Positions 6,260 to 63,498 are shown, counted from the stretch's first letter. The stretch: 64,000 nt of DNA from Steroidobacteraceae bacterium (GCA_036513855.1 DATBYD010000097.1:108705-172704), one strand, 5' to 3'. The notes: generated by a model not told the origin, from the sequence alone. Made by a program: numbers and translations.

Positions 6260-6276
6260 GTGCCGGCTGCCCCGCT

Positions 6277-6296: not shown

Positions 6297-6338
6297 TGCC
6301 GGCCTCCCGGGCCCTAGAGCGAGCGTCAGACGGTCTTC

Positions 6339-9187: not shown

Positions 9188-9310
9188 TCGCGTGGCTCGC
9201 GCCGTCGCGCCCGCCAATGTGTGCCGCGCGCAGCAACTCGTGCAGATCCGCAGCCGCGGACCATCCGCTACGGTCCAGACCGTCTGAGCGATCCAGCAGG
9301 ACAAGCCTCC

Positions 9311-13890: not shown

Positions 13891-13952
13891 GAAGCGCCAT
13901 TCTACCTAGCGAAGCGCTGACGTGCCGTGAGATGCAGCGCGGATGGCAGGAT

Positions 13953-14945: not shown

Positions 14946-14954
14946 GGGGCAGCG

Positions 14955-16641: not shown

Positions 16642-16763
16642 CTCGCGGACCGGGTTCTTTGGGGCGTGACGGGTCGCCCCGACTGGACAGATTCGGGAGA
16701 GGCTTCACGGGGAACTCGGGAGGCGCTCCGTATGATGCCGAGTCGGTCCCTTCCCCCTTGGTT

Positions 16764-19700: not shown

Positions 19701-20390
19701 TACCAGCCCATCGTTGCACTCGACGCGCGCGACGCACGCAGCTTTCACCAGCTCACGGTACGGCTGCGCGACGATGCCGGGGTGCTGGTGCCGCCGAGCG
19801 AGTTCATCCCGGCTGCCGAGCGCTACAACGTCAGTTCGGTGATCGACCGCTGGATCGTGGCTCAGGCGATCGAGCTGCTGCGCCAGCGGCAGCGGCGCGG
19901 CCAAGCGCTGCCGCTGCTGGCCGTCAATCTGTCGGGCACCTCGCTCAACGAGCAGTCATTCGTGGACTTCGTGCTGCAGAGTGTCGCGGAGCCCTGGATC
20001 GCCGGCGCCCTGTGCTTCGAGATCACCGAGACGGCAGCCGTGACGAGCCTCGCCAACGCGCGCTACCTGATGCGCGAGCTAAAGGGCCGCGGTTGCCGCT
20101 TCACGCTGGATGATTTCGGCACCGGGGTGTCCTCGTTCGTGTACCTCAAATCGCTGCCGGTTGATTTCCTCAAGATCGATGGTCAGTTCGTCTGCCAGAT
20201 CGCCGAGGATCCCATCGACCGCAGCATGGTGGAGGCGATCGCCAAGGTCGGCCGCGCGCTCGGGATCGCAACCGTCGCCGAGTGCGTCGAGAACGAGGCG
20301 GTACTGGCGCAACTTAAGGCGATTGGCGTGGACTTCGCGCAGGGGTTCCATCTGGCGAACCCATTGCCGATCTCGCAGCTGCCCACCTAG
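16764..20390 (+). CDS. Multidomain c-di-GMP signalling protein (PAS-PAS-GAF-PAS-PAS-GGDEF-EAL)
   Basis: Repeated PAS blocks each end in ...DITERKRAE. GAF-like segment, intact GGDEF (ARLGGDEFGVL) preceded by RASD (RxxD I-site spacing), then an EAL domain (YQPIV, AVNLS, EITE, DDFGTG, KIDG, AECVE, QGF). Confidence 0.9.
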   Translation: MSNSQTLWTHPQAPDAAPGATTTLVRADPQSNAETHSELHPNLRAQLRELQLRTGSASPDLAMLLRLINDHYVTIDGERRGIVESMRLMADEARALAVEARAQSSEHLQVILDHIKDVVLAVDEDGLIRTFNPTGERVFGYAEAEVVGQRIDLLLPKIAVNESIPEALQRLAASVDDTARDLAGRELWAQRKSGVSFPAEIAVSKAPLSRREMFVLCLRDVTERRESEQAMRESAARYRLLVDHAPEAIVVLDVDSGRFVDANDNAQKFFGLELSRLQEVGPVTLSPPQQPDGASSEERAHAYIQRALAGDVPVFEWAHHDSAGREIVCEVRLVRLPSGNRRLVRGSIADISERKRAERMSAAEHRVFEQVTRNAPLPEVLASITRFIESAGAGMISSASVLAEHRKAFSHMVAPHLPDALRTALGRATVDARNGSCAAAVYLDRQVLVADVTKDPFWADRRDVALAAGVRAAWSTPIKSASGHVLGSLGVYRADPGLPTAAESQIMARAAQLAGIAIERRLAEEALRSSEAKFRGLFESIAEGVYQSGRDGRLLSVNPAFVSMLGYTSVAEMYALPSAAALYWNPADRAEFTRRVEAEGEIRDAEFLMRTRDGAQLVILENARAMRDAAGNIIGYEGTIADITERKRAEQAIFAEKERAQVTLQSIGDAVISTDAHGRIEYINPVAESLTAWSLAEARGQPIGAVLKLVNELTREPIENSLTGALGRCGSGAPADQAVLVTRTGSEVAIQESAAPICDRAGQVIGAVVVFHDVTRERRLKRALSWQASHDALTGLINRREFDNRLHEALLSAQRGEGACALLYIDLDQFKVVNDTCGHQAGDQLLRDVTGLLQTRVRASDTIARLGGDEFGVLVEGCTPELAARIGEAMRQAIRDFRFVWGTSTLSVGASIGIVQIRADTESVATVMSAADIACYAAKDAGRNRIHVYEAGGVSHRHREMQWVARVTRAAEDNRLELFYQPIVALDARDARSFHQLTVRLRDDAGVLVPPSEFIPAAERYNVSSVIDRWIVAQAIELLRQRQRRGQALPLLAVNLSGTSLNEQSFVDFVLQSVAEPWIAGALCFEITETAAVTSLANARYLMRELKGRGCRFTLDDFGTGVSSFVYLKSLPVDFLKIDGQFVCQIAEDPIDRSMVEAIAKVGRALGIATVAECVENEAVLAQLKAIGVDFAQGFHLANPLPISQLPT

Positions 20391-45312: not shown

Positions 45313-51066
<5,754 letters not shown>

Positions 51067-51095: not shown

Positions 51096-52865
51096 ATGGA
51101 CTTCGGCGAAAAGGTAAACATTCTGCTGGTTGACGATCAGCCGGCGCGGCTATTGACCTATCAGTCGGTGCTGAGCGAGCTGGGTCACAATCTGGTATTG
51201 GCTCACTCGGGACTCGAGGCGCTGGACAAGCTCATGCGCGAGGAGTTCGCCGTGGTGCTGCTCGATGTCAGCATGCCGGACATGGACGGGTTCGAGGCGG
51301 CGCGGCTGATCCATGAGCATCCGCGATTCGAGAAAACGCCGATCATCTTCGTCACGGGCGTACACGTGACGGAGCTGGACCGCCTGAAGGGCTACAAGGT
51401 CGGCGCGGTCGACTACGTGTCTATCCCGGTGGTGCCGGAGATCCTGCGCAGCAAGGTCGCAGTGCTGGTCGAGCTGTACTGCAAGCGTCGCGAGTTGCGC
51501 GAGCTGAACCGCAATCTGACGGTGGCTAACGAGCGGCTGGGCGCCGCCAACCAGATGCTGCAGGCGGAGAAGACTCGGGAACTCGAGAGATTGAATGCGA
51601 TCCTGCAGCGAGCCAACGCGGAACTGGGGCGCGCCAACAGCAGCCTGCAGGGGGAGGTCGCTGAACGCGCCAAGGCTCAGCAGGCGCTGAAGGACGCCGA
51701 TCGAAAAAAGGACGAGTTTCTGGCGATGCTGGCGCATGAGCTGCGCAATCCGCTGGCGCCCATCGTCAACGCGCTGTATCTGATGCGCACTAACCCCTCG
51801 GCACGGCAACTGGGCTGGTCGCAGGAGGTGATCGAGCGGCAGTTGGCACACTTGAGCCGGCTGGTTGACGATCTGCTTGATGTGTCGCGCATCACGCGCG
51901 GCAAGATTGCCTTGTCCCCGGAACCCGTAGAGGTCGCGACGCTGGTCGAACGTGCGGTCGAGACCATACATCCCCTGCTTCAGGAGCGCGAACACATCTT
52001 CACGGTCGACACTCCCGGCAGGCCGTTGCGGGTCAACGGGGACCCGCTGCGCCTTACGCAGGCACTCGGCAACGTGCTCGGCAACGCGGCCAAGTACACC
52101 GAGAGGGGAGGCCACATCTGGCTCGACGTGGCCGAGAACGGTGCGGAGGTCGAAATTCGTGTACGCGACGACGGCATAGGTATTCCTGCGGAGCGCTTGC
52201 CGCTGATATTCGACCTGTTCACTCAGCTCGATCGTCAGGCGGACCACCCGCAGAGCGGACTGGGTATCGGCCTGGCTCTCGTGCGCCGATTGCTCGAGAT
52301 GCACGGCGGCTCGGTGACCGCCTCCAGTGAGGGCGCTGGCCGCGGCAGCCAGTTCGTGATCCGGCTGCCTCTGTACACCGGCGAAACACTGACCGAGAAC
52401 GCCAAGGAACCTGCGGCACGACGGTCACAGGCAGCGGCGGTGTGTCGCCGCATTTTGGTAGCCGACGACAATTCCGACGCGCTGGAGAGCCTGTCGGAGG
52501 TTCTGCGGCTGCAGGGCCACGAAGTGTTCAGCGCCGCAAACGGCAGTCTGGCAGTTGAGGTTGCCGAGCGGAATCTGCCTGACGTTGCGCTCATCGATAT
52601 CGGCATGCCGCTGCTCGATGGCTACGAGGTCGCGCGACGGATCCGCGCCCAGAGATGGGGCAAACGAGTGACTCTGCTGGCCCTGACCGGCTGGGGCCAG
52701 GAAGCGGATCGGCGTCGTTCGAGTGAGGCGGGATTCGACCTGCATCTGGTCAAGCCACTCGACGTCGCCAAGCTCAGCGAGCTTTTGGCCAATCTTCCTG
52801 CGGGCGCTGCAAACGGCGGCGGCGGCTTGGGCAGCGGAATGGATCTAACGCGTCCGCGGCAGTGA
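51096..52865 (+). CDS. Hybrid histidine kinase (REC - coiled coil - HisKA - HATPase - REC)
   Basis: N-terminal REC (ILLVDDQP...VLLDVSMPDMDG), HisKA (FLAMLAHELRNPLAPI), HATPase and a C-terminal REC (ILVADDN...ALIDIGMPLLDG). The start is at MDFGEK; the track start 50976 overlaps the upstream gene. Confidence 0.85.
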   Translation: MDFGEKVNILLVDDQPARLLTYQSVLSELGHNLVLAHSGLEALDKLMREEFAVVLLDVSMPDMDGFEAARLIHEHPRFEKTPIIFVTGVHVTELDRLKGYKVGAVDYVSIPVVPEILRSKVAVLVELYCKRRELRELNRNLTVANERLGAANQMLQAEKTRELERLNAILQRANAELGRANSSLQGEVAERAKAQQALKDADRKKDEFLAMLAHELRNPLAPIVNALYLMRTNPSARQLGWSQEVIERQLAHLSRLVDDLLDVSRITRGKIALSPEPVEVATLVERAVETIHPLLQEREHIFTVDTPGRPLRVNGDPLRLTQALGNVLGNAAKYTERGGHIWLDVAENGAEVEIRVRDDGIGIPAERLPLIFDLFTQLDRQADHPQSGLGIGLALVRRLLEMHGGSVTASSEGAGRGSQFVIRLPLYTGETLTENAKEPAARRSQAAAVCRRILVADDNSDALESLSEVLRLQGHEVFSAANGSLAVEVAERNLPDVALIDIGMPLLDGYEVARRIRAQRWGKRVTLLALTGWGQEADRRRSSEAGFDLHLVKPLDVAKLSELLANLPAGAANGGGGLGSGMDLTRPRQ

Positions 52866-52921
52866 GGTGCGCGGCGTGCCGCCCTGCATGGCGCGCCTAG
52901 CGAGCGGCTATGAGGCGCCCC

Positions 52922-54847
52922 TCAGGTCGCAGCAGTCAGATTCGCGACCGCAGCAATGAGCATCTCTGCGCTGATCGGTTTGCTTAGGTGGATCTGAAAG
53001 CCGGCTTCGAGTGCGTCTGAGCGATCTTCGGTTCGCACAAACGCCGTCAGTGCGACCGCGGGCAGTCGATCTGCCGGGTAACCGCCGTTACGCAGCGCAC
53101 GAATGAGCTGGTACCCATCTGTGCGCGCCATCCCGATATCGCTGATCAGCACGTTCGGGGTGTCTCGCGCAATCTCGCTGAGCGCTTCTTCCGCAGTGGC
53201 CGCTTCGCGCACCTCTGCCCCGACGTCGGTGAGCAGGCGCAGGATCAGCGAACGGGTGTCGTCCATGTCTTCAACCACCAGAACCCTGACCCCCGCAAGT
53301 GCAGTGCGGTCGGCGACTGAGGGTGTATCCGCATCCCGCTCTGCCATAGGCAGGCGGACCGTGAAACTGGAGCCATGTCCGAGCCCCTGACTTGCCACGC
53401 TAATGGTGCCTCCATGCATCGTCACCAGATGACGCACGATGGTAAGTCCGATGCCCAGGCCGGAGAAATTCTTGGCACTGCCGGAATCTTGCTGACTGAA
53501 TCGATCAAACAGGCGCGGCAGGAAATCCGGGCTGATGCCGCTGCCGGTATCAGCGATGGTCACCTCGAAGTGGTTTCCATCTAGCCGGGCCGCGATATCG
53601 ATCCGGCCGCCTTTTGCAGTGAATTTGATCGCGTTGGTGAGCAGGTTCCAGAACACCTGCTGCAGCCTCGCTTCATCGCCGATCAGCGAGGGGCGCTGCT
53701 CGAGCTGCCGCACGTGAATCGCGACACCTTTCGTCTGGGCGTCCATCAACACCACTTCGATGGCGGCGCGCAGCGCCTGGCTTGGGTCGATGAGCCGCTT
53801 TTCCAGGCGCATCTTGCCGAACCGTATGCCGGCAAAGTCCAGCAAGTCCGAGATCAGGTGCGCCTGCACCCGGGAGTTGCGTTCGATCGCCTCCACTCCG
53901 CGCAGGATCGCCGGCGAGAGATTCGGGGTCCTACGCAGTACCTCCGCCCATCCCAAAATGGCATTGAGCGGGTTGCGTAATTCGTGGGACAAGGTCGCGA
54001 GAAACTCGTCTTTGAGGTGGTTGCTGCGTTCGGCCTCGGCACGCGCAGCCTGTTCACCCGCCAGCGCGTGCTCGCGCTCGATTTCGAGCTGGCGGCGCGC
54101 CGTGATGTCCGAGATGATCGCGATGCAGGCCCCGGTGCCCGGATCCCGGGTCACCTGCCATTCGGTCTCCGCCAGGGCTCCGCAGGCCTGCGGCACACGC
54201 ATGACACCCTGCCAATTGCGATCCTTGGTGAGTGCGGTCTTCAGTTCGCCCAGCTGCGTTTCGTGGCCGACCGCCACGATGTCCTGCAGAGCTCTGCCGA
54301 CAATCGCTTCTCGCTTGCAGCCCAGCAGCTGACAGAAGGCCGGGTTCGCATCGGCGAATACGAATTCAGAGTCGAGCATCGCTATGCCGTTGGGCGCAAG
54401 TTCAAACAGCGCACGAAACCTGGCGTCGGCATTTCTCTTGTCGGCGTGTGCATCCTTGACGAACAACAGCGCTCGCACGGTGGCGACGAGCACCACCGGG
54501 TCGGCGGGATGCGTGAGGTAGCCGTCGGCTCCGGCGCGCATCCCGCGAGCGATGTCTTCATCGTTGGTGAAGGTGGCAGACAGGTAGACGATCGGCAGAT
54601 CAGCGGTGTCTTTCTGTGCGCGCAGCTCGCGGAATACCTGGAATCCGTCGATGTCGGGGAGGTTCACATCGAGGACGATCAGGTCGATGTCGCTGGAGGC
54701 GAGTGCCAGCGCTTCCCGGCCGGTTGCGGCTTCTTCGGTCTGGAAACCTGCCGCGCGCAGCACTCGCACTGTCGCGTAGCGGGACGCGTCGTTGTCATCG
54801 ACGACCAGCAGACGCTGCACGGCCGCTTCTTTGGGCGGCATGCTCAT
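52922..54847 (-). CDS. Hybrid histidine kinase (REC - PAS - HisKA - HATPase - REC), last gene of the stressosome operon
   Basis: REC (LLVVDDND...IVLDVNLPDIDG), a PAS segment, HisKA (FLATLSHELRNPLNAI), HATPase (GLGIGLTIV) and a C-terminal REC (VLVVEDMDD...LISDIGMARTDG). There is a 4-nt overlap with the upstream gene. Confidence 0.85.
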   Translation of the reverse strand: MSMPPKEAAVQRLLVVDDNDASRYATVRVLRAAGFQTEEAATGREALALASSDIDLIVLDVNLPDIDGFQVFRELRAQKDTADLPIVYLSATFTNDEDIARGMRAGADGYLTHPADPVVLVATVRALLFVKDAHADKRNADARFRALFELAPNGIAMLDSEFVFADANPAFCQLLGCKREAIVGRALQDIVAVGHETQLGELKTALTKDRNWQGVMRVPQACGALAETEWQVTRDPGTGACIAIISDITARRQLEIEREHALAGEQAARAEAERSNHLKDEFLATLSHELRNPLNAILGWAEVLRRTPNLSPAILRGVEAIERNSRVQAHLISDLLDFAGIRFGKMRLEKRLIDPSQALRAAIEVVLMDAQTKGVAIHVRQLEQRPSLIGDEARLQQVFWNLLTNAIKFTAKGGRIDIAARLDGNHFEVTIADTGSGISPDFLPRLFDRFSQQDSGSAKNFSGLGIGLTIVRHLVTMHGGTISVASQGLGHGSSFTVRLPMAERDADTPSVADRTALAGVRVLVVEDMDDTRSLILRLLTDVGAEVREAATAEEALSEIARDTPNVLISDIGMARTDGYQLIRALRNGGYPADRLPAVALTAFVRTEDRSDALEAGFQIHLSKPISAEMLIAAVANLTAAT

Positions 54848-55725
54848 AGCTTGCCGACCCGCGCTGTTTCGCAGCTGTAGGTCACCGGAATGAGCACCCA
54901 GAACCGGGAGCCCACCCCAGGCTCGCTCTGGGCGCCGACGCGGCCGCCGAGCAGTTCTGCGAGCTTTCTCGATAGCGATAATCCGAGCCCGCTGCCGCGC
55001 AGGCGTCTCTGCAAGCGCGTGTCGACCTGGACAAAGTCGGCAAACAGCGCGGGCAGGTGCTCCGGCGCTATTCCGACGCCGGTATCGGTGACCGCAAATT
55101 CGATCTCTTCGGTGCCAACAGCGCAGGCGCTCACGCGCACTTCGCCCTCCTTGGTGAATTTGAGTGCGTTGGAGATGAAATTTCTGAGTATTTGCGAGAG
55201 TCGTCGGTCATCAGAATACATCTTCGGAACCCCTTGTGGCTCCTCGAATATGAGCGACACGGCCGAGCTTGCCACGATTGGCTTGAACATGCCGCGCAAT
55301 GCTGCGAACAGATCAACCATCTCGAACCATTCGGGCGAGATCACGACGCGTCCGGCGTCCACCTTGGCGAGGTCCAACAGATCGTCCACCATCTCGGTAA
55401 GTTCGCGAATTGACTCGCGGATGAACTCCACCTGCCGGGTCTGTTCTGCGGTCAGTGGGCCGTCCAGTCCCTGCAGCAGAATGCCGCTAAGACTCGTAAC
55501 CGAGGAAAGCGGGGTGCGAAATTCATGGCTCATGTAGGACAGGAAGCGGCTTTTCAGTTCCAGCGCCTCTCTGAGCTGTGCGGCCTTGTCATCGAGTTCG
55601 GCGTACAGCGCGACGACTCCACGGTTGGTTTCCTCAAGTTCGGTGCGCAGGGCCGCGATCTGCGCTTCCTGCTCTCGCAGGTGCAGCGTGGAGTCACGAA
55701 AGTTGGAAGAGTCAGCTTCGCTCAT
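54844..55725 (-). CDS. Soluble histidine kinase (coiled coil - HisKA - HATPase, no sensor domain)
   Basis: 293 aa with HisKA (FLSYMSHEFRTPLSSV) and HATPase N/G boxes (ISNALKFT, DTGVGIA, GSGLGLSL). It overlaps both neighbours by 4 nt. Confidence 0.85.
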   Translation of the reverse strand: MSEADSSNFRDSTLHLREQEAQIAALRTELEETNRGVVALYAELDDKAAQLREALELKSRFLSYMSHEFRTPLSSVTSLSGILLQGLDGPLTAEQTRQVEFIRESIRELTEMVDDLLDLAKVDAGRVVISPEWFEMVDLFAALRGMFKPIVASSAVSLIFEEPQGVPKMYSDDRRLSQILRNFISNALKFTKEGEVRVSACAVGTEEIEFAVTDTGVGIAPEHLPALFADFVQVDTRLQRRLRGSGLGLSLSRKLAELLGGRVGAQSEPGVGSRFWVLIPVTYSCETARVGKL

Positions 55726-56723
55726 CGGCTAAGCACCACTACCGTGCTGTCATCGCGGCCTCTGCAGTGGTCGCGATACAAGACCGCGGCGATGATGGCC
55801 GGGTGATGGCGTTGCAGTCCGGGGTGGTCGCCAATCTCCCAACGAGCCGACAGGCCGTCGGAGTGCATGATCAGCAGTGAGGCCTCCAGCACCGGGTACT
55901 CGAATTGCTGGACCCGTGGAGCCTGAAAGCCGAGCGTGCCGCTGTGGGATACCAGACCGCGCGAGCTTTCTGCGCCGGCGAGGCGGCCAGCAATGTTGCC
56001 GATACCCGCGTAGAGGACTGCCGCGCTGCCATTCAGATGAGCGCACGCGCCGGCGGCGCCGCGCGTGCCGGACAAGGCCTGGTGCATGCGTTCAATCAGG
56101 GCGCGCGGCTCGTCGAACGGATTCTTCTGAAAGGCCTCGGCGGCGAGCCGCGCAGCTTCCGCCGCCAGCGTGCCGTGTCCAAGGCCGTCGACGACCATCA
56201 GCGCGCTGTGTGCGTTTCTTTGCGCTAATCTCCAGACGTCTCCGCACTCCGATTCACCCTCCTTGGCCGTACAGATGGCGCCGATGTGACTCAGCCGGCC
56301 TGCCCCGACACGTGCCATGACGACGGTTCCCCGGCCGACCATGGAGTAAACATCGAACTCTGCGGCGAGGCGCTTGACCGCGCCAAGGCCGGTCCCGGAC
56401 GTGCCGGCGGAGGAATATCCGTCACGAAGACAGGTCTCGACACTTGGCATGCCAGGTCCGCGGTCGATTGCGATCACCTCAATGACAGCGCCGGGCTCGA
56501 TCGGAACGGGTTGTAGCAGCAGCTCGCCGCCGCCACCGTGGCGCAACAGGTTGGTAGCCAGTTCGCTCGCGACCACGCCGACGCGACCAATCACGGTTTC
56601 ATCCAGGCCAGTGTCGCTGGCCAGTCGCTGCGCGTCTCGCCTCGCCTCGCCAATCCCGCTCTGATCGCGGATCAGTAGGCGACGTTGGGGCTCTGTTCCT
56701 AACAACTGCACAGTTACTTCCAA
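55722..56723 (-). CDS. Fusion of an RsbW/RsbT-like ATPase (Ser kinase fold) to a PP2C/SpoIIE phosphatase (RsbX/RsbU-position)
   Basis: The N-terminal half has ASELATNLLRHG, IDRGPGMP and GTGLGAVKR. The C-terminal half has the MVVDGLGHG PP2C motif and IMHSDGL. Confidence 0.8.
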   Translation of the reverse strand: MEVTVQLLGTEPQRRLLIRDQSGIGEARRDAQRLASDTGLDETVIGRVGVVASELATNLLRHGGGGELLLQPVPIEPGAVIEVIAIDRGPGMPSVETCLRDGYSSAGTSGTGLGAVKRLAAEFDVYSMVGRGTVVMARVGAGRLSHIGAICTAKEGESECGDVWRLAQRNAHSALMVVDGLGHGTLAAEAARLAAEAFQKNPFDEPRALIERMHQALSGTRGAAGACAHLNGSAAVLYAGIGNIAGRLAGAESSRGLVSHSGTLGFQAPRVQQFEYPVLEASLLIMHSDGLSARWEIGDHPGLQRHHPAIIAAVLYRDHCRGRDDSTVVVLSR

Positions 56724-57109
56724 CGCACGATAGTCACGCGCGTACCCTCACCAACGCGTGATTCGATCGAGAAGTCATTAACCAAGCGGCGCGCCCCGGG
56801 GAGGCCCATGCCGAGCCCGCTGCCAGAGGTCCAGCCGTCCTTGAGCGCAAGCTCCAGATCAGCGATTCCTGGTCCGTGATCGATGAAGCTAAGACGCAGT
56901 CCCTGACGCCCGCCGTTCTCCAGCTGCTCCATGGTCATGACACCGCCCATTCCGTAAGTGAGCGTATTGCGGGCCAGCTCGCTGGCGGCGGTGACGATCT
57001 TGGTCTGATCGACCAGCGATAGACCGATCTGCTGCGCAGCGCGTCGCACCAGCTGCCGCGCCAGCACGATGTCGTTGGGGGACTTCAAAGGTGCCTCAGA
57101 CGCGTTCAT
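56714..57109 (-). CDS. rsbT: Stressosome switch kinase RsbT
   Basis: 131 aa; ASELARNTLTYG, IDHGPGI and GLGMGLPGARRL match the RsbT-type anti-sigma regulatory kinase fold. It follows rsbS. Confidence 0.85.
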   Translation of the reverse strand: MNASEAPLKSPNDIVLARQLVRRAAQQIGLSLVDQTKIVTAASELARNTLTYGMGGVMTMEQLENGGRQGLRLSFIDHGPGIADLELALKDGWTSGSGLGMGLPGARRLVNDFSIESRVGEGTRVTIVRWK

Positions 57110-57114
57110 CGCTG

Positions 57115-57474
57115 CTAGGAGTTTCCGGCGCGCAGCAACGCCATGCCTTTCTCGACGCTCAGGGCGGTCTCGACCCCGGGGAGCGAGAGGCCGAGTTCCA
57201 CCAGCGTGATTGCCACGGCCGGGCGCATACCGACCAGAACGGTGCGCGCGCCGAGGATTCGCCCCATTCCAGAGATATCGGCAAGCATCCTGCCGATGAA
57301 CGAATCCACGACTTCGACAGCCGAGATGTCGATCAGTACGCCGCGCGCGCTGAAGCGCTGCACGGCGTTCGTAAGATCATCCTGGAGCTGCAGGGCCATC
57401 TGATCATGCAGATCAACCTGGATGGAGACGAGCAGACACTCGCCCATGCGCAGGATTGGTATCCGTTCTGTCAT
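57115..57474 (-). CDS. rsbS: Stressosome scaffold STAS protein RsbS
   Basis: 119-aa single STAS domain with the conserved phosphorylatable Ser context (DISAVEVVDSFIG). The longer track ORF start is an upstream extension into rsbR. Confidence 0.85.
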   Translation of the reverse strand: MTERIPILRMGECLLVSIQVDLHDQMALQLQDDLTNAVQRFSARGVLIDISAVEVVDSFIGRMLADISGMGRILGARTVLVGMRPAVAITLVELGLSLPGVETALSVEKGMALLRAGNS

Positions 57475-57476
57475 GA

Positions 57477-58331
57477 TCAGCGTGTAAACGAATAACCGAG
57501 GCGCTTGAGCGCCAGAGCCAGGGCGTCCGCCAGGTTCGCCTTGGTGGTGACGCCTTGCAGGTCGACGCCAAGGTGCACGATGGTCTGGGCGATCTGCGGC
57601 CGCACCCCGCTGATAATGCACTCCGCACCCATGAGCCGCAGTGCGGTCACGGTCTTCAGCAGGTGCTGGGCGACTAGCGTGTCGACTGTCGGTACGCCGG
57701 TAATGTCGAGAATCGCAACTTCCGAGCCAGTCTCTACAATCCTGCTGAGCAGCGATTCCATCACCACCTGAGTTCGCGCCGAATCGAGCGTGCCGATCAT
57801 CGGCAAGGCCAGGATCCCGTCCCACAGTTTGACGACCGGGGTAGACAGTTCGAGCATTTCCTCCTGTTGGCGCCTGATGATGGCATCGCGGCCGGACTGG
57901 TATGCCGCCACGGTATGCAGGCCGAGCGCATCAAGAAGTTGAGTCCCCGTCCAGATGTCGTCGGCGAGCCCTGCGGAATCTGCGCCGCGCTCGACTCGCA
58001 GTTGCTCGAACAGCGATTGCTTGAAGGAGAAGATGAACGAGGCCGTTTCGCTCGATGAGAAGCCGTGCTGCGCGCGCGATCTCGAAAGCCGTTCGAGGAA
58101 CTCCCGCAGCGGTTTGTAGCCAGCCGACTCGATATCGGCGCTGCCGCTCTTGGTGGCCTCGCTGAGGAGCTGCAGAAACTCTTCTGTCTGCTTTCCCAGT
58201 TCCTCCGCTCCCAGCGAGCCGTGCTGCGCCCTGGCCGCGTTGTTGGTCAGCGATCGCAGCCACTGCTGCTGCAGCTTCTGTCGCTTGGCTGGCGTGTTTA
58301 CGAGGGTTGAAATCGAGCTGATGCCCGCCAT
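57477..58331 (-). CDS. rsbR: Stressosome sensor RsbR (N-terminal helical sensor domain plus C-terminal STAS)
   Basis: 284 aa. The C-terminal STAS has the conserved Thr context (ILDITGVPTVDTLVAQHL), and the N-terminal helical domain of about 140 aa is of the RsbR type. Confidence 0.85.
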   Translation of the reverse strand: MAGISSISTLVNTPAKRQKLQQQWLRSLTNNAARAQHGSLGAEELGKQTEEFLQLLSEATKSGSADIESAGYKPLREFLERLSRSRAQHGFSSSETASFIFSFKQSLFEQLRVERGADSAGLADDIWTGTQLLDALGLHTVAAYQSGRDAIIRRQQEEMLELSTPVVKLWDGILALPMIGTLDSARTQVVMESLLSRIVETGSEVAILDITGVPTVDTLVAQHLLKTVTALRLMGAECIISGVRPQIAQTIVHLGVDLQGVTTKANLADALALALKRLGYSFTR

Positions 58332-58750
58332 GAGTTATTCCTTTTTAATGAAGGAAGCCTTGCGCGGGAGCGGCGCACAGGCCTGCTGAGTGCGTAAGCA
58401 ACAGATTCTATTCGAAGTGCTGCCCTCGCGAGGTTGCTTGCAGCAATTTCCGCTTGAGCTTGGCCGACCGCTTTTGGTGCCCCATCTCGGATCTGGCTTT
58501 GCAGTGCCAGTAGCGCGGCAGCGCCTGTTGAGCCTGCAACGCGCCCCGTTGGCGGGCGACAGTGCGGTAATCGCCCGTCGCGCCAAGGCGGCGCTACACA
58601 CGCCGCCGCTCAAGCCTGCGATAATGCCTCCGGTAGCTTTGGGCGGCGGCACACATGGTGGCGGCCTGAAGTGAGGTGCACGGCCAGGTACTGCCGGTGG
58701 CGACGCTGAAGATGTCGGACCTGCCGCCCTGCCAGTCCAAGTATCTTTGT

Positions 58751-58789
58751 CCGCTCTCGCTTGCGCTCACGAATGCGAGCGGTGGTTTT
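58751..58789 (+). terminator. Terminator-like hairpin plus T-tract inside the leader of the metE-like gene (possible attenuator)
   Basis: CCGCTC(TC)GC - 14-nt loop - GCGAGCGG followed by TGGTTTTC. It lies 79 nt upstream of the ATG at 58868. There is a 2-nt bulge and only a modest T-run, so the call is weak. Confidence 0.3.
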
Positions 58790-58867
58790 CGGGTTACTTA
58801 ATTCTGGTCGCTGAGGCGATATGAGCGCCGTCGTGCGCTTGGCGTTCGCCAGGAGGGGGACAACAGC

Positions 58868-59932
58868 ATGCCGCTGCCGACCGAGCCGATTGGGAGCATT
58901 CCGCGCCCCCTCGAGTTGCTGCAGGCGATCGAGGCGCGTGGCGATGGGATGCACCCTGCGTTGGATCCCCTGTACGAGGAGGCAACGCGCGACACGATCG
59001 CGCGCATGGAGGCTACCGGTTCGCCGGTCATTACTGACGGCGAGCAAAGGAAATATCACAACTTCTGGACTTACAGCGTCCACGGGCTCAAGAACACCAG
59101 TCCGAACGGCTTCAAGATCCCGTTTTCAGCCGGTCATACACGACGCATGCTGCTGCTGACCGCCGAACCTTTTCGCTACAAGAGGTATGCGGACCAGTAC
59201 CTCGATGTGGCACTTCGCTACGCCCACGTGCCGATCAAGCAGGCGGTCATCTCGCCCTCGGCCTTGAGCCTTATGTATCCGGCAGAGGGAATTCACGACT
59301 ATTCGCGCGAGCAGTTCATTGACGATCTGCTGCGCGAACATGAAACCGAAGTGCGCCGCTGCCTGCAGAAGGGTGCCTGCAAGGTGCAGATCGACTTCAC
59401 CGAGGGGAGGCTCGCGATGAAGATCGATCCGTCCGGCAACCTTCTCAGCAGCTTCATCGACCTGAACAATCTCGCCCTGTCACGCTTCTCGGCTGCCGAC
59501 CGCCGACACATCGGTGTGCACACCTGCCCCGGCGGCGACCGCGACTCCACGCACAGCGCAGATGTCGACTACGCCGAGCTGCTGCCGAGTCTGTTCGAGC
59601 TGAACGTCGGAAGCCTCTACATCGCACTGGCCGGGGAGGCCGACCGGCGCGGCGTACTCGAAACCATCCGCCGCCATCTGCGGCCCGACCAGACGGTGTT
59701 CGTCGGGGTTGTCGCGCCGATCGATCCGCACATCGAGACTCCCGAGGAGGTTCGCGACCGTGTACTCGAGGCGGCCGAGTACATCCCGATAGGGCAGCTC
59801 GGTACCACGGATGACTGTGGGTTTTCTCCGTTCTGTGACGACAGGTCGACGACACGCGACACCGCCTTCGCGAAGATCACAGCACGCGTTCTCGGCACGA
59901 CTCTCGCCGCCGAAGTTCTCGGCGTGCACTGA
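58868..59932 (+). CDS. Cobalamin-independent methionine synthase-like protein (MetE C-terminal-domain family, COG0620 type)
   Basis: MPLPTEPIGSIPRP N-terminus and Zn-ligand contexts (GVHTCPGG, TTDDCGFSPF). Confidence 0.8.
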   Translation: MPLPTEPIGSIPRPLELLQAIEARGDGMHPALDPLYEEATRDTIARMEATGSPVITDGEQRKYHNFWTYSVHGLKNTSPNGFKIPFSAGHTRRMLLLTAEPFRYKRYADQYLDVALRYAHVPIKQAVISPSALSLMYPAEGIHDYSREQFIDDLLREHETEVRRCLQKGACKVQIDFTEGRLAMKIDPSGNLLSSFIDLNNLALSRFSAADRRHIGVHTCPGGDRDSTHSADVDYAELLPSLFELNVGSLYIALAGEADRRGVLETIRRHLRPDQTVFVGVVAPIDPHIETPEEVRDRVLEAAEYIPIGQLGTTDDCGFSPFCDDRSTTRDTAFAKITARVLGTTLAAEVLGVH

Positions 59933-61965
59933 TGGGTAGCGAGGAAGAGGAAGAGGAGGAGGAGCGGCTGCGGTCGGCAGCGCTTGAGAATGCCAAGAGC
60001 ATTCACCGTGCGCGTCAGCGTGCAGAACGAGAGTTGATCGCCGCCAAAGAGGCGTTGGAGCTGAAGACGCAGGAACTTGCCCGCTCCCTTGCGGTGATGC
60101 AGGCGACGCTGGAGTCGACCTTCGATGGAATTTTGGTGACGGACGGGGAGCGAAGGGTTTCCGGATTCAACGAGAAGTACCTGCGAATGTGGAGCATCCC
60201 GCGGGAGCTCATCGACGCGGGACGGCATGAGCGCCTGCTCGAACTGTGCGCCACCCGGCTTGCGGATTCAGAGGGCTATCTCTCCCGGATCGAGGCGATC
60301 TACGCGACCTCCCCGCCCGAGAGTATCGACGTGCTCGAACTGACCGATGGGCGGGTGTACGAGCGGTTTTCGACCATCGAGTACCTGGATGGTCGCAACA
60401 TAGGCCGGGTCTGGAGCTTCCGCGACATTACGGCGCAAAAGCTGGTGGAGGCGGAACTGCGCCAGCAGCGCGAATGGTTCCAGGTGACCTTAGCCAGCAT
60501 TGGCGATGCCGTGATTACGACCGACACACTCGGTCGGGTCACATTCCTCAACGCTGTGGCTGAGGCCAAGACCGGATGGCAGTCGGCCGAAGCGCGCGGC
60601 TTACCGCTGGAGCGAATATTCAACGTCGTCAGCGAATACACCCGCCAGCCGGCGCCGAATCCCATCCGGCGGGTTCTGCGCGAAGGCGCGATCGTTGAGC
60701 TCGCCAACCATACCGTGTTGATCTCGAAGGACGGCAGCGAGGTTGCCGTCGAAGATAGCGCCGCACCGATTCGCGACGCCAACGGCGAGATTTCCGGCGC
60801 GGTAATGGTTTTTCACGATGTAACCGCGCGGCGTCGGGCGGAAGCCGCGCTGCGCGAGGCCGATCGGCGCAAGGATGAGTTCCTCGCCACCCTGGCGCAT
60901 GAGCTACGCAATCCGCTGGCACCGATCCGGCAGGCCGCGTTCATCGCCCAGGCTTCAGGGGCTAGTGACGCGCAGAAACGCTGGAGTCACGACGTCATTG
61001 AGCGTCAGATTCAACACATGTCGCTGCTGCTTGACGATCTGCTGGATATTTCGCGCGTGACGCGCGGAACCCTGGTGCTGCGCGTCCAGCCGACCGACCT
61101 TGCGGCAATGATTGACGCGGCGGTCGAGACGGCGCGCCCGAGAATCGATGCCAAGCGGCATACCCTCAAAGTCGAGACTCCGGATAGGCCGATCCAATTC
61201 AATGCCGATCCTCTGCGCATGGCGCAGATCCTGTCCAATCTGCTGATGAATGCCGCCAAGTACACCGACCCTGAGGGGCTCATTCGACTCAGCGCCAAAT
61301 GCGAAGGCGAGGAGATGATCATCCGGGTCACCGACACGGGGATTGGCATCAGCGCGGAGTCATTGCCGGGAATCTTCGAGATGTTTACGCAAGTTTCCTC
61401 GGCAAGGGACCGGGCAGAGGACGGGCTGGGGATCGGGCTTGCTCTTACGAAGGGGCTCGTCGAGCTGCACGGGGGAAAGATCGAGGCGAGCAGCGCAGGA
61501 CTCGGTCGGGGAAGCGAGTTTACGGTCAGGCTGCCAATGCGGGGCGCAACCGAGCCGGGCCGAAGCGCGGCGGGCGCAGCGACTGCGGAGCCCGCGCCCG
61601 TCAGGCGGCGAGTGCTGATTGCGGACGACAATCGCGACTCGGCCGAAACGCTTGCGGACCTGTTACGGATGGAAGGTCACGCCGTGACTGCCGTGCACGA
61701 TGGACCTGGATCGCTTGCCGCCTTCGAGGATTTTCGTCCGGACATCGTGCTCCTTGACATCGGCATGCCAGGGCTCGATGGCTACGAGGTTGCCCGCAGG
61801 ATGAGGGCCAGTCGATTCAGTAAAGACACGCGGCTGATCGCGATCACCGGATGGGGCCAGGAACACGACCGTGAACGGGCCTTCTCCGCGGGATTCGACT
61901 ATCACCTCACCAAGCCGGTTGATCCGCGACGGCTGTCTGAACTGCTCCGGAGCTTTCGGTACTGA
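59932..61965 (+). CDS. Hybrid histidine kinase (coiled coil - PAS - PAS - HisKA - HATPase - REC)
   Basis: Glu-rich N-terminus, two PAS units, HisKA (FLATLAHELRNPLAPI), HATPase and REC (VLIADDN...VLLDIGMPGLDG). The kinase-REC half is a close paralog of 51096..52865. The start codon overlaps the upstream stop (TGATG). Confidence 0.85.
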   Translation: MGSEEEEEEEERLRSAALENAKSIHRARQRAERELIAAKEALELKTQELARSLAVMQATLESTFDGILVTDGERRVSGFNEKYLRMWSIPRELIDAGRHERLLELCATRLADSEGYLSRIEAIYATSPPESIDVLELTDGRVYERFSTIEYLDGRNIGRVWSFRDITAQKLVEAELRQQREWFQVTLASIGDAVITTDTLGRVTFLNAVAEAKTGWQSAEARGLPLERIFNVVSEYTRQPAPNPIRRVLREGAIVELANHTVLISKDGSEVAVEDSAAPIRDANGEISGAVMVFHDVTARRRAEAALREADRRKDEFLATLAHELRNPLAPIRQAAFIAQASGASDAQKRWSHDVIERQIQHMSLLLDDLLDISRVTRGTLVLRVQPTDLAAMIDAAVETARPRIDAKRHTLKVETPDRPIQFNADPLRMAQILSNLLMNAAKYTDPEGLIRLSAKCEGEEMIIRVTDTGIGISAESLPGIFEMFTQVSSARDRAEDGLGIGLALTKGLVELHGGKIEASSAGLGRGSEFTVRLPMRGATEPGRSAAGAATAEPAPVRRRVLIADDNRDSAETLADLLRMEGHAVTAVHDGPGSLAAFEDFRPDIVLLDIGMPGLDGYEVARRMRASRFSKDTRLIAITGWGQEHDRERAFSAGFDYHLTKPVDPRRLSELLRSFRY

Positions 61966-62322: not shown

Positions 62323-62946
62323 TCAGCTCTTGCGTTTCCGTCGGCTCAAACTAAGACCCGCGAAGCCGAAGCCCATCAGCGCGAGTGTGGCGGGCTCCGG
62401 AACGGCGCTCGGCGCGGAACTGGTTATGACTACATCGTCCAGGACAGAGCCGATGTCGCCTGGAGTGTTGCTCGTAAAAGTCAGAAACGCCGCTGTCGGC
62501 GAGCTTACCGTCACGAGCTGGTTACTGACGATACCGTCTGTAACGTCTGCGGAAGGCAAGACGAATGTTTTGCTGTAGCTGCCAAAAGTAACCGTCGTCG
62601 AATCAGTCACCCCGCGCTGCGAACCGATGAGGTCGAAACTCAGGAAATAGTTCACTCCTGGCTCCAACGTGATGGCGGTGGTGGTCCGCAAGATTCCCTG
62701 CGGGTTTCCGTTGCTGCCATCGAGGTCGATGCAGTTGCCGGATTCAGGCGCCGCACACAAACCGCCGAAAAGACTTCCGCCGACGATGTCGACATTAGTA
62801 CCATCGATGGCCGAGAACGCGCCAACGGATGTTGCACTGAGCATAGGTGTCAGTTCGTCAAAGTTCTCGTCGAGTAGTGTGGCGGCCTGCGCGAGCGGCA
62901 CGAAGCCCAACGCGGAGGCGGCCAAAATCAAATAGGCTCGTTTCAT
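62323..62946 (-). CDS. PEP-CTERM sorting-domain protein (exosortase substrate) with a DUF642-like beta-sandwich domain
   Basis: Signal peptide MKRAYLILAASALGFVPLAQA. The C-terminus VPEPATLALMGFGFAGLSLSRRKRKS is the canonical PEP motif plus TM helix plus basic tail. The start is at the second Met. Confidence 0.85.
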   Translation of the reverse strand: MKRAYLILAASALGFVPLAQAATLLDENFDELTPMLSATSVGAFSAIDGTNVDIVGGSLFGGLCAAPESGNCIDLDGSNGNPQGILRTTTAITLEPGVNYFLSFDLIGSQRGVTDSTTVTFGSYSKTFVLPSADVTDGIVSNQLVTVSSPTAAFLTFTSNTPGDIGSVLDDVVITSSAPSAVPEPATLALMGFGFAGLSLSRRKRKS

Positions 62947-63498
62947 TGACGTGTCCTCCGTCATTCCCGATTCATTTCTGAGCGTCCATGGGACCCTGAT
63001 GGGCTAAGCAAAGTGTAGCGCTAATGCACACGGTCCGCGCTAGGGTAATTTCACAGATTTTCCTGTAAAGAAATTCGACGGGTCCGCGTGCTGTGCCTGG
63101 CGCGCGACATGTACGGTGGTGACATAAGGTGCGCCGCCGGTCCGGCGCCACAGCCGCCGCAGAGTTTCCGCAGCAAGGGCTGCTTAATGCGAGTTCAATG
63201 CTGCGACAGCTGCGATCCGGCGCCGGGCTCTCGTTAATGCAGCACGCGCCGCCAATGCCTAAGCCCAAGTTGCGGGCTGCTGAACGACGTACGAGGGCCG
63301 CCCGCACCGGCAACGCGAGCCGCGGCGGCATTCTCGGCGGCGCTCGACCATCGGCCGACCAAACCGGCTGACCGTGAGGACCTCATCGAAGCGCCTCAAA
63401 AGGCCTCGGCATCGCGCCGACATCCAGTAGCGCGGGTGCAGAACTACTGGGCAAAACGAGCGACGCCGGGCTTATGCCGGTGCGGTGCATAATGAGTT

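What the first reader, a model, noticed from the sequence alone, without database searches (positions are those of the whole stretch)
52922..58331. Stressosome operon (RsbR-RsbS-RsbT) wired to a phosphatase fusion and two histidine kinases instead of a sigma factor
Six minus-strand genes are joined by gaps of 2-5 nt or overlaps of 4-10 nt. The order is RsbR (sensor plus STAS, Thr context VDT conserved), RsbS (STAS, Ser context VDS conserved), RsbT (switch kinase), a fusion of a second RsbT/RsbW-like ATPase to a PP2C phosphatase, a sensor-less soluble histidine kinase, and a REC-PAS-HK-REC hybrid kinase. No RsbV/RsbW partner-switching pair or sigma factor is present. RsbRST modules coupled to two-component outputs have been noted by comparative genomics in some Proteobacteria, for example Vibrio vulnificus. 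How RsbT release is converted into His-Asp phosphotransfer is not established, and the final output here is not encoded in the operon.
Basis: partly seen in the sequence, partly recalled or inferred. Interest (0 to 1): 0.65.

Follow-up and report, generated by a model that had tools for sequence, protein, structure and literature searches.

The report
Stressosome operon feeding a histidine-kinase relay
An uncultured soil bacterium carries a six-gene operon that joins a stress-sensing "stressosome" (RsbR, RsbS, RsbT and a reset phosphatase) to two histidine kinases instead of a sigma factor; this class of system is already described, but this particular layout is common in soil bacteria and, as far as I could find, unstudied.

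Summary
Six minus-strand genes (58331 to 52922) are packed with 2-5 nt gaps or 4-nt overlaps. They encode RsbR (RsbRD_N + STAS), RsbS, RsbT, a second RsbT-like kinase domain fused to a PP2C, a 293-aa soluble histidine kinase, and a REC-PAS-HK-REC hybrid. Every catalytic and phospho-acceptor residue is present and conserved in orthologues.

The operon is not a one-off. All 80 related genome loci have rsbR-rsbS-rsbT upstream of the fusion, and 41-45 have the same two kinases downstream. No flanking gene is conserved.

The PP2C is of the RsbX/MtX reset type, so the fusion belongs to the sensing module rather than the output.

In sister cassettes the orthologous kinase, or a GGDEF cyclase, carries a third RsbT-like domain fused to its N-terminus. 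That domain joins the same near-invariant helix (ELxxTNxGVxALYAEL) that begins the kinase here. I infer that released RsbT acts on this helix.

Stressosome modules with two-component outputs have been described since 2005 and studied in Vibrio vulnificus. This is therefore an uncharacterised variant of a known kind, of moderate interest.

The parts
57477..58331 (-). rsbR. A 284-aa co-antagonist/sensor with an N-terminal RsbRD_N (non-haem globin type) domain at about 57996-58286 and a C-terminal STAS domain at about 57522-57833. Phospho-acceptor Thr181 lies in IGTLDS and Thr215 in PTVDT.
   Evidence: Pfam gives RsbRD_N 5e-23 and STAS 3.5e-15. The best PDB match is V. vulnificus stressosome RsbR 7o0i_B at 2.4e-32, followed by Listeria RsbR. 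T181 and T215 are 100% and 97% conserved in 74 orthologues. An AAGGA ribosome-binding site lies 8 nt before the ATG.
57115..57474 (-). rsbS. A 119-aa single-STAS scaffold/antagonist. The phospho-acceptor Ser58 lies in VVDSF.
   Evidence: Pfam gives STAS 1e-9. PDB matches are RsbS 6jhk at 3e-33, Listeria RsbS 6qcm at 2.7e-32 and M. thermoacetica MtS 2vy9 at 1.6e-28. S58 is 100% conserved in 79 orthologues.
56714..57109 (-). rsbT. A 131-aa GHKL-type serine kinase (switch kinase). It has the N box E44/N48, the G1 box D77-G79-G81 and the G2 box G98-G100-G102.
   Evidence: Pfam gives HATPase_c_2 1.2e-9. The PDB match is SpoIIAB at 2e-3. The motifs are 100% conserved in 79 orthologues. It falls in the free-RsbT clade of the T-domain tree.
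55722..56723 (-). Fusion of a second RsbT-like kinase domain (about 56313-56654) to an RsbX-type PP2C phosphatase (about 55725-56285). It is 333 aa from TTG 56723, or 329 aa from GTG 56711.
   Evidence: Pfam gives HATPase_c_2 2.5e-11 and SpoIIE 2.2e-6. The N domain is 35% identical to the window's RsbT. By sequence the PP2C matches only MtX 3zt9 (2.4e-12) and RsbX 3w40 (5e-10) in the PDB. The AF2 model has pLDDT 88.6 and pTM 0.90. Its best folds are 3zt9 (TM 0.84), 3w40 (0.77) and, for the N domain, SpoIIAB 1til (0.74). Kinase residues N58 (98%), D87 and G91 (100%) and G89 (97%), and PP2C residues D162, D179, G242-N243, D289, D324 and D325 (all 100%), are conserved in 77 orthologues.
54844..55725 (-). 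Soluble 293-aa histidine kinase. It consists of an N-terminal conserved helix (residues 12-58, 55552-55692, motif ELEETNRGVVALYAELD), HisKA with His67, and HATPase_c. It has no sensor domain, no transmembrane segment and no RsbU_N.
   Evidence: Pfam gives HisKA 2.8e-17 and HATPase_c 2e-27, with nothing N-terminal. The maximum hydropathy is below the transmembrane level. It is 58% identical to residues 172-445 of a Noviherbaspirillum HATPase_c_2-HK-REC protein. Helix positions T33, N34, G36, A39, L40, Y41 and E43 are 100% conserved in 67 orthologues.
52922..54847 (-). A 641-aa hybrid kinase. REC1 (54476-54808) has Asp60 but His113 in place of the usual Lys. PAS is at 54089-54424. HisKA/HATPase_c (53342-54013) carries His288. 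REC2 (52940-53287) has Asp570 and Lys623.
   Evidence: Pfam gives Response_reg x2 at 3e-44, PAS_8/PAS_4, HisKA 7e-16 and HATPase_c 8e-31. D60, H288 and D570 are 97-100% conserved in 41 orthologues. Position 113 is H in 75% and R in 21% of them.
58332..58867 (.). A 536-bp intergenic region upstream of rsbR, shared with a divergent gene. It is the presumed promoter region of the operon.
   Evidence: The sequence was read. The consensus scan of 52600-59000 found no sigma-70-like promoter on either strand, so the promoter type is unknown.

Best explanation
This is a self-contained six-gene signalling cassette: a minimal stressosome of the 'RSTX' type coupled to a two-kinase His-Asp relay.

Shown by sequence:
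- RsbR (non-haem-globin-type sensor + STAS) and RsbS (STAS) are close relatives of proteins that build solved stressosome cores.
- RsbT is an intact GHKL serine kinase.
- The next gene fuses a second, paralogous RsbT-like kinase domain to an RsbX/MtX-type PP2C.
- Then come a sensor-less soluble kinase and a REC-PAS-HK-REC hybrid.
- All acceptor and catalytic residues are intact.

Inferred by analogy with the Bacillus, Listeria and Vibrio systems:
- At rest, RsbT is held on the RsbR/RsbS core.
- A signal sensed by the RsbR N-domain lets RsbT phosphorylate RsbS Ser58 and RsbR Thr181/Thr215, and RsbT then leaves the core.
- The PP2C half of the fusion removes these phosphates and resets the complex.
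- The fusion's own RsbT-like half most likely docks the phosphatase on the STAS core. It may also act as a second kinase, as in the kinase/phosphatase protein SypE.

Inferred from domain fusions in sister cassettes:
- Free RsbT acts directly on the conserved N-terminal helix of the 293-aa kinase and switches on autophosphorylation at His67.
- The phosphoryl group then passes to a receiver of the hybrid kinase, Asp60 and/or Asp570.
- The hybrid integrates a second input through its PAS domain.
- The final output partner is encoded outside the cassette.
For: Identity of the parts: Pfam; PDB sequence matches to RsbR and RsbS of solved stressosomes and to MtX/RsbX; AF2 model and fold search; residue conservation.

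Functional unit:
- Junctions are tight or overlapping.
- All 80 genome loci that hold the fusion have rsbR-rsbS-rsbT directly upstream wherever the contig allows.
- 41-45 of them have the same HK plus REC-PAS-HK-REC pair downstream.
- No flanking gene family is shared by more than 10 loci.

Link from RsbT to the kinase:
- In 24 sister loci the gene after the fusion is HATPase_c_2-HisKA-HATPase_c-REC. In 4 Terriglobus-type loci it is HATPase_c_2-GGDEF.
- These effector-fused T domains form their own clade, sister to free RsbT.
- The window's kinase aligns at 58% identity with the kinase part of such a fusion, starting inside the linker helix.
- That helix is nearly invariant in 67 kinases.
- The helix retrieves almost only histidine kinases from 1.84 billion representatives: 580 hits, and 59 of the 60 long ones are HKs. 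Pfam detects an N-terminal HATPase_c_2 in 21 of those 60.

Literature: RsbT activates RsbU through an N-terminal domain and a coiled-coil linker, and the same logic has been proposed for kinases and cyclases (PMC12143880). In V. vulnificus, mutants of the upstream and downstream modules have similar phenotypes (PMC10014275).

Expression: soil metatranscriptome contigs match rsbR, the fusion and the hybrid at 94-100% identity. This is thin evidence.
Against: - No experiment exists for any member of this cassette type.
- The kinase has no RsbU_N domain, the only RsbT-binding module known so far.
- In V. vulnificus, no RsbT-D1 interaction could be detected (PMC9237108).
- Sister cassettes that carry a T domain fused to the kinase also keep a free RsbT. 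The fused T may therefore have a role that free RsbT does not replace.
- REC1 of the hybrid lacks the conserved Lys, so its competence as a phospho-acceptor is uncertain.
- Assembly of RsbR/RsbS into a large complex was not tested.
- The metatranscriptome contigs could come from contaminating DNA or from close relatives.
Confidence: 0.6

Rival explanations
1. RsbT signals by phosphorylation, not by allosteric binding. Released RsbT, or the kinase half of the fusion, transiently phosphorylates the 293-aa kinase or the hybrid on Ser/Thr. The PP2C of the fusion reverses this mark as well as those on RsbS and RsbR.
For: Heinz et al. propose exactly this for downstream kinases that lack RsbU_N, and they cite their failure to detect a stable RsbT-D1 complex (PMC9237108). 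Jia et al. summarise the Moorella work as RsbT-homologue phosphorylation of the cyclase (PMC4976288). Both T-type domains here keep intact ATP-binding motifs.
Against: No conserved Ser/Thr acceptor was identified. In the near-invariant helix motif, T33 is the only hydroxyl residue. In B. subtilis the kinase activity of RsbT is not needed to activate RsbU (title of ref. b34). Covalent fusion of a T domain to the same helix in sister cassettes fits a binding or allosteric role better than a catalytic one.
Confidence: 0.2
2. The fusion protein, not free RsbT, is the relay. Its RsbT-like half is what the stressosome holds and releases. Alternatively, its PP2C half acts on the kinases, making the fusion an RsbU-like output phosphatase rather than a reset enzyme.
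For: The fusion is the invariant neighbour of rsbT in all 80 loci and is translationally coupled to the kinase gene by a 4-nt overlap. The high pTM of 0.90 suggests a rigid two-domain unit whose phosphatase could be gated by the T-like half.
Against: The PP2C matches only the reset phosphatases MtX and RsbX by sequence, and matches them best by fold. It carries the 'GN' signature of RsbX-like enzymes (G242-N243 100% conserved; PMC4524716). No phospho-Ser/Thr substrate other than RsbR and RsbS is encoded in the cassette. The fusion's T domain forms a clade separate from both free RsbT and the effector-fused T domains.
Confidence: 0.12
3. The real output is a conventional RsbV/RsbW-sigma (or other) module elsewhere in the genome. 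The two kinases are co-located regulators that act upstream of, or in parallel with, the stressosome.
For: Only 64 kb of the genome is visible. The window is rich in unrelated two-component genes, so adjacency could partly reflect a signalling-gene neighbourhood.
Against: The kinase pair is conserved next to the RSTX genes in 41-45 of 80 loci across several phyla, while nothing else around them is conserved. In sister cassettes the kinase is physically fused to an RsbT-like domain. No STAS, RsbW or PP2C paralogue occurs elsewhere in the window.
Confidence: 0.05

Closest known systems
Vibrio vulnificus stressosome locus (VvRsbR-S-T-X plus downstream VvD1/VvD2 two-component genes)
   Same: Both have an RSTX module followed within a few bases by two-component proteins, with no sigma factor and no RsbU/V/W. 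RsbR of the window has its best PDB match in VvRsbR (7o0i_B). How RsbT reaches the kinase is equally unknown in both (PMC9237108; PMC10014275).
   Different: VvRsbR has a haem-binding globin-coupled sensor, whereas here the N-domain is RsbRD_N. VvRsbX is described as a single-domain PP2C, whereas here it is fused to a second RsbT-like kinase domain. The V. vulnificus downstream pair is predicted to control c-di-GMP, whereas here it is HK plus REC-PAS-HK-REC with no output domain.
Bacillus subtilis / Listeria RsbR-RsbS-RsbT-RsbU-RsbV-RsbW-SigB-RsbX pathway
   Same: RsbS (about 3e-33 to solved RsbS proteins), the RsbR STAS domain, the RsbT kinase motifs, the acceptor Ser/Thr and an RsbX-type reset phosphatase are all shared.
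   Different: This cassette has no RsbU, RsbU_N, RsbV, RsbW or sigma factor in the operon or window. RsbX follows rsbT directly and carries an extra kinase domain. The output is a His-Asp relay.
Moorella thermoacetica MtR-MtS-MtT-MtX-MtG stressosome
   Same: Both are RSTX modules with a non-sigma output. MtX is the closest solved relative of the PP2C here (3zt9, E 2.4e-12, TM 0.84). MtS matches RsbS at 1.6e-28. Terriglobus-type sister cassettes also end in a GGDEF cyclase.
   Different: MtG receives RsbT through an RsbU_N domain (PMC12143880). The sister cassettes instead use a fused RsbT-like domain, and this window has a kinase with only the linker helix.
Vibrio fischeri SypE (serine kinase - REC - PP2C) acting on the STAS protein SypA
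   Same: One polypeptide combines an RsbW/RsbT-like serine kinase with a PP2C phosphatase and acts on a STAS protein (PMC10120452).
   Different: SypE has a central REC domain that switches between its two activities, and the fusion here has none. SypA is a lone STAS protein, not a stressosome core. Homology beyond the domain families was not tested.
Mycobacterium tuberculosis Rv1364c (PAS-PP2C-RsbW-like kinase-STAS)
   Same: It also fuses a PP2C and a GHKL serine kinase in one chain. It appears among the fold matches (3ke6).
   Different: The domain order is reversed and it has additional PAS and STAS domains. It ranks well below MtX and RsbX.

Membership tests
Stressosome core (RsbR-RsbS-RsbT module) | RsbR-type protein: a variable N-terminal sensor plus a C-terminal STAS with the two conserved acceptor threonines | tested here: met
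   RsbRD_N plus STAS. T181 and T215 align with the acceptor positions in Listeria and Vibrio RsbR and are 97-100% conserved.
Stressosome core (RsbR-RsbS-RsbT module) | RsbS: a single STAS domain with the conserved acceptor serine | tested here: met
   A 119-aa STAS protein, 3e-33 to solved RsbS. S58 in DSF is 100% conserved.
Stressosome core (RsbR-RsbS-RsbT module) | RsbT: a small GHKL serine kinase with N, G1 and G2 boxes, encoded directly after rsbS | tested here: met
   HATPase_c_2. E44, N48, D77, G79 and G81 are 100% conserved. The gene order R-S-T has 2- and 5-nt gaps.
Stressosome core (RsbR-RsbS-RsbT module) | Assembly of RsbR and RsbS into a megadalton pseudo-icosahedral complex that sequesters RsbT | not testable with these tools
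   This needs co-expression with size-exclusion chromatography or cryo-EM. Only sequence similarity to proteins from solved stressosomes is available.
RSTX module (minimal stressosome with reset phosphatase) | An RsbX-type PP2C encoded immediately downstream of rsbT | tested here: met
   The PP2C half matches only MtX and RsbX by sequence and matches them best by fold. The metal-binding Asp residues and the GN motif are conserved.
RSTX module (minimal stressosome with reset phosphatase) | RsbX is a single-domain protein, as described for the globin-coupled clusters | tested here: not met
   An N-terminal HATPase_c_2 domain with intact ATP-binding motifs precedes the PP2C. This holds in all 80 related loci.
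SigB-type partner-switching output (RsbU-RsbV-RsbW-sigma) | An RsbU_N domain on the downstream effector | tested here: not met
   There is no RsbU_N hit in any of the six proteins at E<=0.01, nor in the kinase N-terminus. Only about 57 residues precede HisKA.
SigB-type partner-switching output (RsbU-RsbV-RsbW-sigma) | RsbV (STAS), RsbW (kinase/anti-sigma) and a sigma factor in the locus | tested here: not met
   The 64-kb window has no further STAS or RsbT/W-like domain and no sigma-70-family hit in the scanned genes. The rest of the genome is not visible.
Two-component His-Asp phosphorelay | HisKA with the H-box His, plus HATPase_c with N and G boxes, in both kinases | tested here: met
   H67 and H288, N186 and N405, and the DxGxG and GxGxG boxes are 100% conserved.
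Two-component His-Asp phosphorelay | Receiver domains with the acidic pocket, acceptor Asp, Thr/Ser and Lys | tested here: inconclusive
   REC2 is complete (D527, D570, T601, K623). REC1 has D17/D18, D60 and T92 but has His113 (H 75%, R 21%) in place of the conserved Lys.
Two-component His-Asp phosphorelay | An HPt domain and a terminal response regulator with an output domain | tested here: not met
   No Hpt or output domain occurs in the six proteins. No downstream gene is conserved across the loci.
SypE-like bifunctional STAS kinase/phosphatase | An RsbW-like serine kinase and a PP2C in one polypeptide | tested here: met
SypE-like bifunctional STAS kinase/phosphatase | A central REC domain controlling the switch between the two activities | tested here: not met
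   No REC is present. A linker of roughly 10-15 residues joins the two domains.

The most novel reading that the evidence does not exclude
RsbT-like domains are a general plug-in input module, and this cassette family exposes the missing link between stressosomes and His-Asp signalling.

Three paralogous T-domain lineages exist: free RsbT, T fused to the RsbX phosphatase, and T fused to a kinase or cyclase. The near-invariant helix ELxxTNxGVxALYAEL in front of the DHp domain would be the element through which a T domain switches the kinase. It would act in cis in the sister cassettes, and in trans (by released RsbT) in the layout seen here.

If true, the 293-aa kinase with RsbT would be a minimal, soluble, reconstitutable system for a step that could not be shown in Vibrio vulnificus.
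Probability: 0.3. Interest if true: 0.65.

Novelty: new variant of a known kind. Interest (0 to 1): 0.42.

Why it matters
How a stressosome passes its signal to anything other than RsbU is an open question. In V. vulnificus, the only Gram-negative system studied in vivo, no RsbT-kinase interaction could be shown (PMC9237108).

The cassette described here is common in soil Proteobacteria and Acidobacteriota, and it also appears in loci from several other phyla. All its parts are small and soluble. Its sister cassettes provide natural fusions of an RsbT-like domain to the same kinase. Together these point to a specific, mutable helix as the coupling element.

That turns a vague question into a direct binding and autophosphorylation experiment. 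It also suggests that the reset phosphatase is targeted or regulated by its own RsbT-like domain, a feedback design different from the sigma-B-dependent RsbX loop of Bacillus.

The window itself adds only one more copy of this cassette, from an uncultured soil gammaproteobacterium.

Tried and rejected
- Promoter and terminator scan of 52600-59000. It found no sigma-70-like promoter and nothing convincing at the operon ends, so the promoter type stays unknown.
- Search for a conserved output gene. Clustering all ORFs within 3.5 kb up- and downstream of the cassette in 80 loci gave no family present in more than 10 loci, and the largest clusters were generic HK/REC proteins.
- Search for RsbU_N in the kinases. 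None was found.
- Search for a second STAS/RsbW/PP2C set or a sigma factor in the window. None was found.
- Literature. Seven full-text searches found no description of the RsbT-like/RsbX fusion or of T-domain-fused kinases in stressosome loci. The two primary comparative surveys (Pane-Farre 2005 and 2017) are not held, so prior description cannot be excluded. One search was badly designed and returned only unrelated microbiome papers.
- RNA evidence. Only four short metatranscriptome contigs matched, which is too little to show co-transcription.
- Considered and rejected: that the fusion is an RsbU-like output phosphatase (its PP2C is RsbX/MtX-type), and that the tight gene packing is chance (the arrangement recurs gene for gene across phyla).
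- Organism identity. The nearest representative genome is only 68% identical in the fusion protein (an uncultured gammaproteobacterial MAG; most close hits are Steroidobacteraceae). DNA runs holding the sequence are soil and peat metagenomes.

Full report
**1. The observation**

The six minus-strand ORFs lie exactly at the stated coordinates:
- rsbR 57477-58331 (284 aa)
- rsbS 57115-57474 (119 aa)
- rsbT 56714-57109 (131 aa)
- the fusion gene 55722-56723 (333 aa from TTG)
- a kinase gene 54844-55725 (293 aa)
- a hybrid kinase gene 52922-54847 (641 aa)

The junctions are a 2-nt gap, a 5-nt gap, a 10-nt overlap, a 4-nt overlap and a 4-nt overlap. Independent gene calls on two metagenome assemblies that carry the identical fusion protein give 284/119/131/329/293/641 aa. 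The fusion therefore more likely starts at GTG 56711, which leaves a 2-nt gap after rsbT.

None of the six proteins has a transmembrane-like segment.

**2. Identity of the sensing module**

RsbR has its best solved relative in the Vibrio vulnificus stressosome RsbR (7o0i_B, 2.4e-32), followed by Listeria RsbR. RsbS matches solved RsbS proteins at 3e-33 to 1.6e-28, including Listeria RsbS and Moorella MtS.

I aligned orthologues from 80 related genome loci and checked the key residues:
- RsbR acceptors Thr181 and Thr215, and RsbS acceptor Ser58, are 97-100% conserved.
- The N, G1 and G2 boxes of RsbT are 100% conserved.

The fusion's PP2C half matches only two PDB sequences, the stressosome reset phosphatases MtX (3zt9) and RsbX (3w40). 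An AlphaFold2 model of the fusion (pLDDT 88.6, pTM 0.90) has the same two as its best fold matches (TM 0.84 and 0.77). Its N-terminal half matches SpoIIAB (TM 0.74). The PP2C keeps its metal-binding aspartates and the 'GN' signature of RsbX-like enzymes (PMC4524716).

The N-terminal half is 35% identical to the window's own RsbT and keeps intact ATP-binding motifs. The first four genes are thus an 'RSTX' module in the sense of Heinz et al. 2022 (PMC9237108). The difference is that RsbX carries a second RsbT-like kinase domain, whereas the clusters they surveyed have a single-domain PP2C.

**3. The module is a widespread cassette**

The fusion protein has thousands of database relatives of the same length and domain pair. 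NCBI names them 'ATP-binding SpoIIE family protein phosphatase'. A scan of one genome per species found 293 loci, and the best 80 were fetched. They come from Steroidobacteraceae and other Gammaproteobacteria, Burkholderiales (Variovorax, Pelomonas, Roseateles, Aquincola, Methylibium, Noviherbaspirillum), Alphaproteobacteria (Microvirga, Rhodopila), Acidobacteriota, Methylomirabilota, Nitrospira, Planctomycetota, Verrucomicrobiota, Gemmatimonadota and others.

In all 80 loci, rsbR (RsbRD_N + STAS), rsbS and rsbT precede the fusion wherever the contig allows. The downstream genes fall into these groups:

| Downstream genes | Loci |
|---|---|
| ~290-aa HK, then REC-PAS-HK-REC (same as the window) | 41-45 |
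| HATPase_c_2-HisKA-HATPase_c-REC(-REC), then REC-HK(-REC) | 24 |
| HATPase_c_2-GGDEF (Terriglobus type) | 4 |
| Other kinase forms | 4 |
| Contig ends, or nothing on the same strand | 3 |

Nothing beyond these genes is conserved. No flanking family occurs in more than 10 loci.

The window's copy comes from an uncultured soil organism. DNA runs that hold it are soil and peat metagenomes, and the nearest representative genome is 68% identical in the fusion protein.

**4. What the sister cassettes say about mechanism**

A distance tree of all RsbT-type domains from these loci gives three clean clades: free RsbT (81 sequences), the T-like half of the fusion (80), and T domains fused to effectors (24 kinases + 4 cyclases). 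The effector-fused clade is sister to free RsbT.

The free-RsbT tree splits into a clade holding all cassettes of the window's type and a clade holding the T-fused-effector types. The two layouts are therefore sister lineages.

The window's 293-aa kinase is 58% identical over residues 12-283 to residues 172-445 of the Noviherbaspirillum soli T-HK-REC protein. The alignment begins inside the linker helix that joins the T domain to the DHp domain.

That helix is strikingly conserved for a linker. In 67 kinases of both layouts, E29, L30, T33, N34, G36, V37, A39, L40, Y41, E43, L44, A48 and L51 are 97-100% conserved.

I used residues 12-58 alone as a query against 1.84 billion representative proteins. 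This retrieved 580 proteins at E<=1e-3. Of the 60 longest among the top 150, 59 are histidine kinases, 42 have a REC domain and 21 have a Pfam-detectable N-terminal HATPase_c_2. Many carry the motif twice in tandem.

By the usual domain-fusion argument, an RsbT-type domain and this kinase helix work together physically. In the window's layout the only unfused RsbT-type protein is RsbT itself. I therefore infer that released RsbT acts on the helix of the 293-aa kinase. This fits the recently described activation of RsbU by RsbT through an N-terminal domain and a coiled-coil linker, and the authors' proposal that the same logic extends to kinases and cyclases (PMC12143880). It remains an inference, and no interaction was tested.

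**5. The relay**

Both kinases have intact H, N and G boxes (H67 and H288). The hybrid's C-terminal receiver is canonical (D570, T601, K623). Its N-terminal receiver keeps the acidic pocket and Asp60, but has His (75%) or Arg (21%) where receivers normally have the conserved Lys. Its status as an acceptor is therefore open.

No HPt domain and no output domain is present. The most economical reading is: 293-aa kinase, then a receiver of the hybrid, with PAS as a second input, then an unlinked partner.

**6. The absent sigma pathway**

No RsbU_N was found in any protein. No other STAS, RsbT/W-like or PP2C domain exists anywhere in the 64 kb. No sigma-70-family protein appears among the 36 Pfam-scanned genes. 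The rest of the genome cannot be seen.

**7. Expression**

Two soil metatranscriptome assemblies contain short contigs matching the operon:
- rsbR 58027-58177, 0 differences
- rsbR 57705-57877, 2 differences
- the fusion 56166-56316, 9 differences
- the hybrid 54231-54381, 3 differences

This is compatible with transcription in situ. It is too thin to show an operon transcript, and DNA carry-over cannot be excluded.

**8. Comparison with what is known, and verdict**

RsbRST(X) modules linked to two-component proteins, c-di-GMP enzymes or PP2Cs instead of sigma-B have been described since Pane-Farre et al. 2005. They were surveyed again in 2017 and 2022, and the V. vulnificus example has been studied structurally and genetically.

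Three features differ from the characterised examples:
- The reset phosphatase is fused to a second RsbT-like kinase domain.
- The downstream kinase has neither RsbU_N nor a sensor, only a near-invariant helix.
- In sister cassettes that helix is covalently preceded by a third RsbT paralogue.

I found no description of these features in the searchable literature. I could not read the 2005 and 2017 surveys.

I rate the finding as a real, correctly read, uncharacterised variant of a known kind. It is widespread rather than rare. Its main value is the testable hypothesis about the RsbT-to-kinase step. Interest is moderate.

Noticed in passing
window 45313-51066 (+) and about 51100-52865 (+): A 1917-aa kinase with about ten HAMP/HAMP_2 repeats, GAF, HisKA, HATPase_c and three REC domains is followed by a REC-HisKA-HATPase_c-REC kinase. 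Both converge on the 3' end of the stressosome operon. Orthologues of the giant kinase, matching along its whole length though cut by the locus end (2740-2781 bits), lie next to the same cassette in two Variovorax species (L075, L077), but there they are divergent from rsbR. A functional link is possible.
   Followed up: partly
window 54476-54808 (-), REC1 of the hybrid kinase: The N-terminal receiver has His113 where receivers normally have the conserved Lys. In 41 orthologues the position is H in 75% and R in 21%, within the motif YLTHP. The acidic pocket and Asp60 are kept, and the C-terminal receiver keeps Lys623.
   Followed up: partly
window 58868-59932 (+) and 59932-61965 (+): A Meth_synt_2-like (cobalamin-independent methionine-synthase fold) gene overlaps by one base the start of a PAS-PAS-HisKA-HATPase_c-REC hybrid kinase. 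The pair is divergent from rsbR. This is an unusual enzyme-like partner for a kinase.
   Followed up: no
Proteins P0121-P0270, alignment A2: The helix motif ELEETNRGVxALYxEL occurs twice in tandem in many histidine kinases of the representative library (consensus of A2). In about two thirds of the long hits, Pfam does not recognise the roughly 170-residue N-terminal region as HATPase_c_2. The A2 consensus resembles a degenerate RsbT-like domain.
   Followed up: partly
L034, L035, L039, L040 (Terriglobus and related Acidobacteriaceae): Here the gene after the fusion is a 376-aa HATPase_c_2-GGDEF protein. An RsbT-like domain is fused directly to a diguanylate cyclase through a similar helical linker.
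   Followed up: partly
window 4050-15368 and 62323-62964: This is a polysaccharide export and synthesis region: an ABC-2/Wzt transporter, a sugar transferase, an acyltransferase and an epimerase. It also has two sigma-54-dependent REC activators (7745-9187 and 10359-11747) and a HAMP kinase (12403-13890). A PEP-CTERM protein lies at 62323-62964.
   Followed up: no
window 16659-20390 (+): A 1243-aa protein with multiple PAS domains, GAF, GGDEF and EAL. The window as a whole is dense in signalling genes.
   Followed up: no
window 52600-58900: Soil metatranscriptome contigs (runs X23 and X24) match short stretches of rsbR, the fusion and the hybrid at 94-100% identity. Related DNA is found in many soil and peat metagenomes.
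   Followed up: partly
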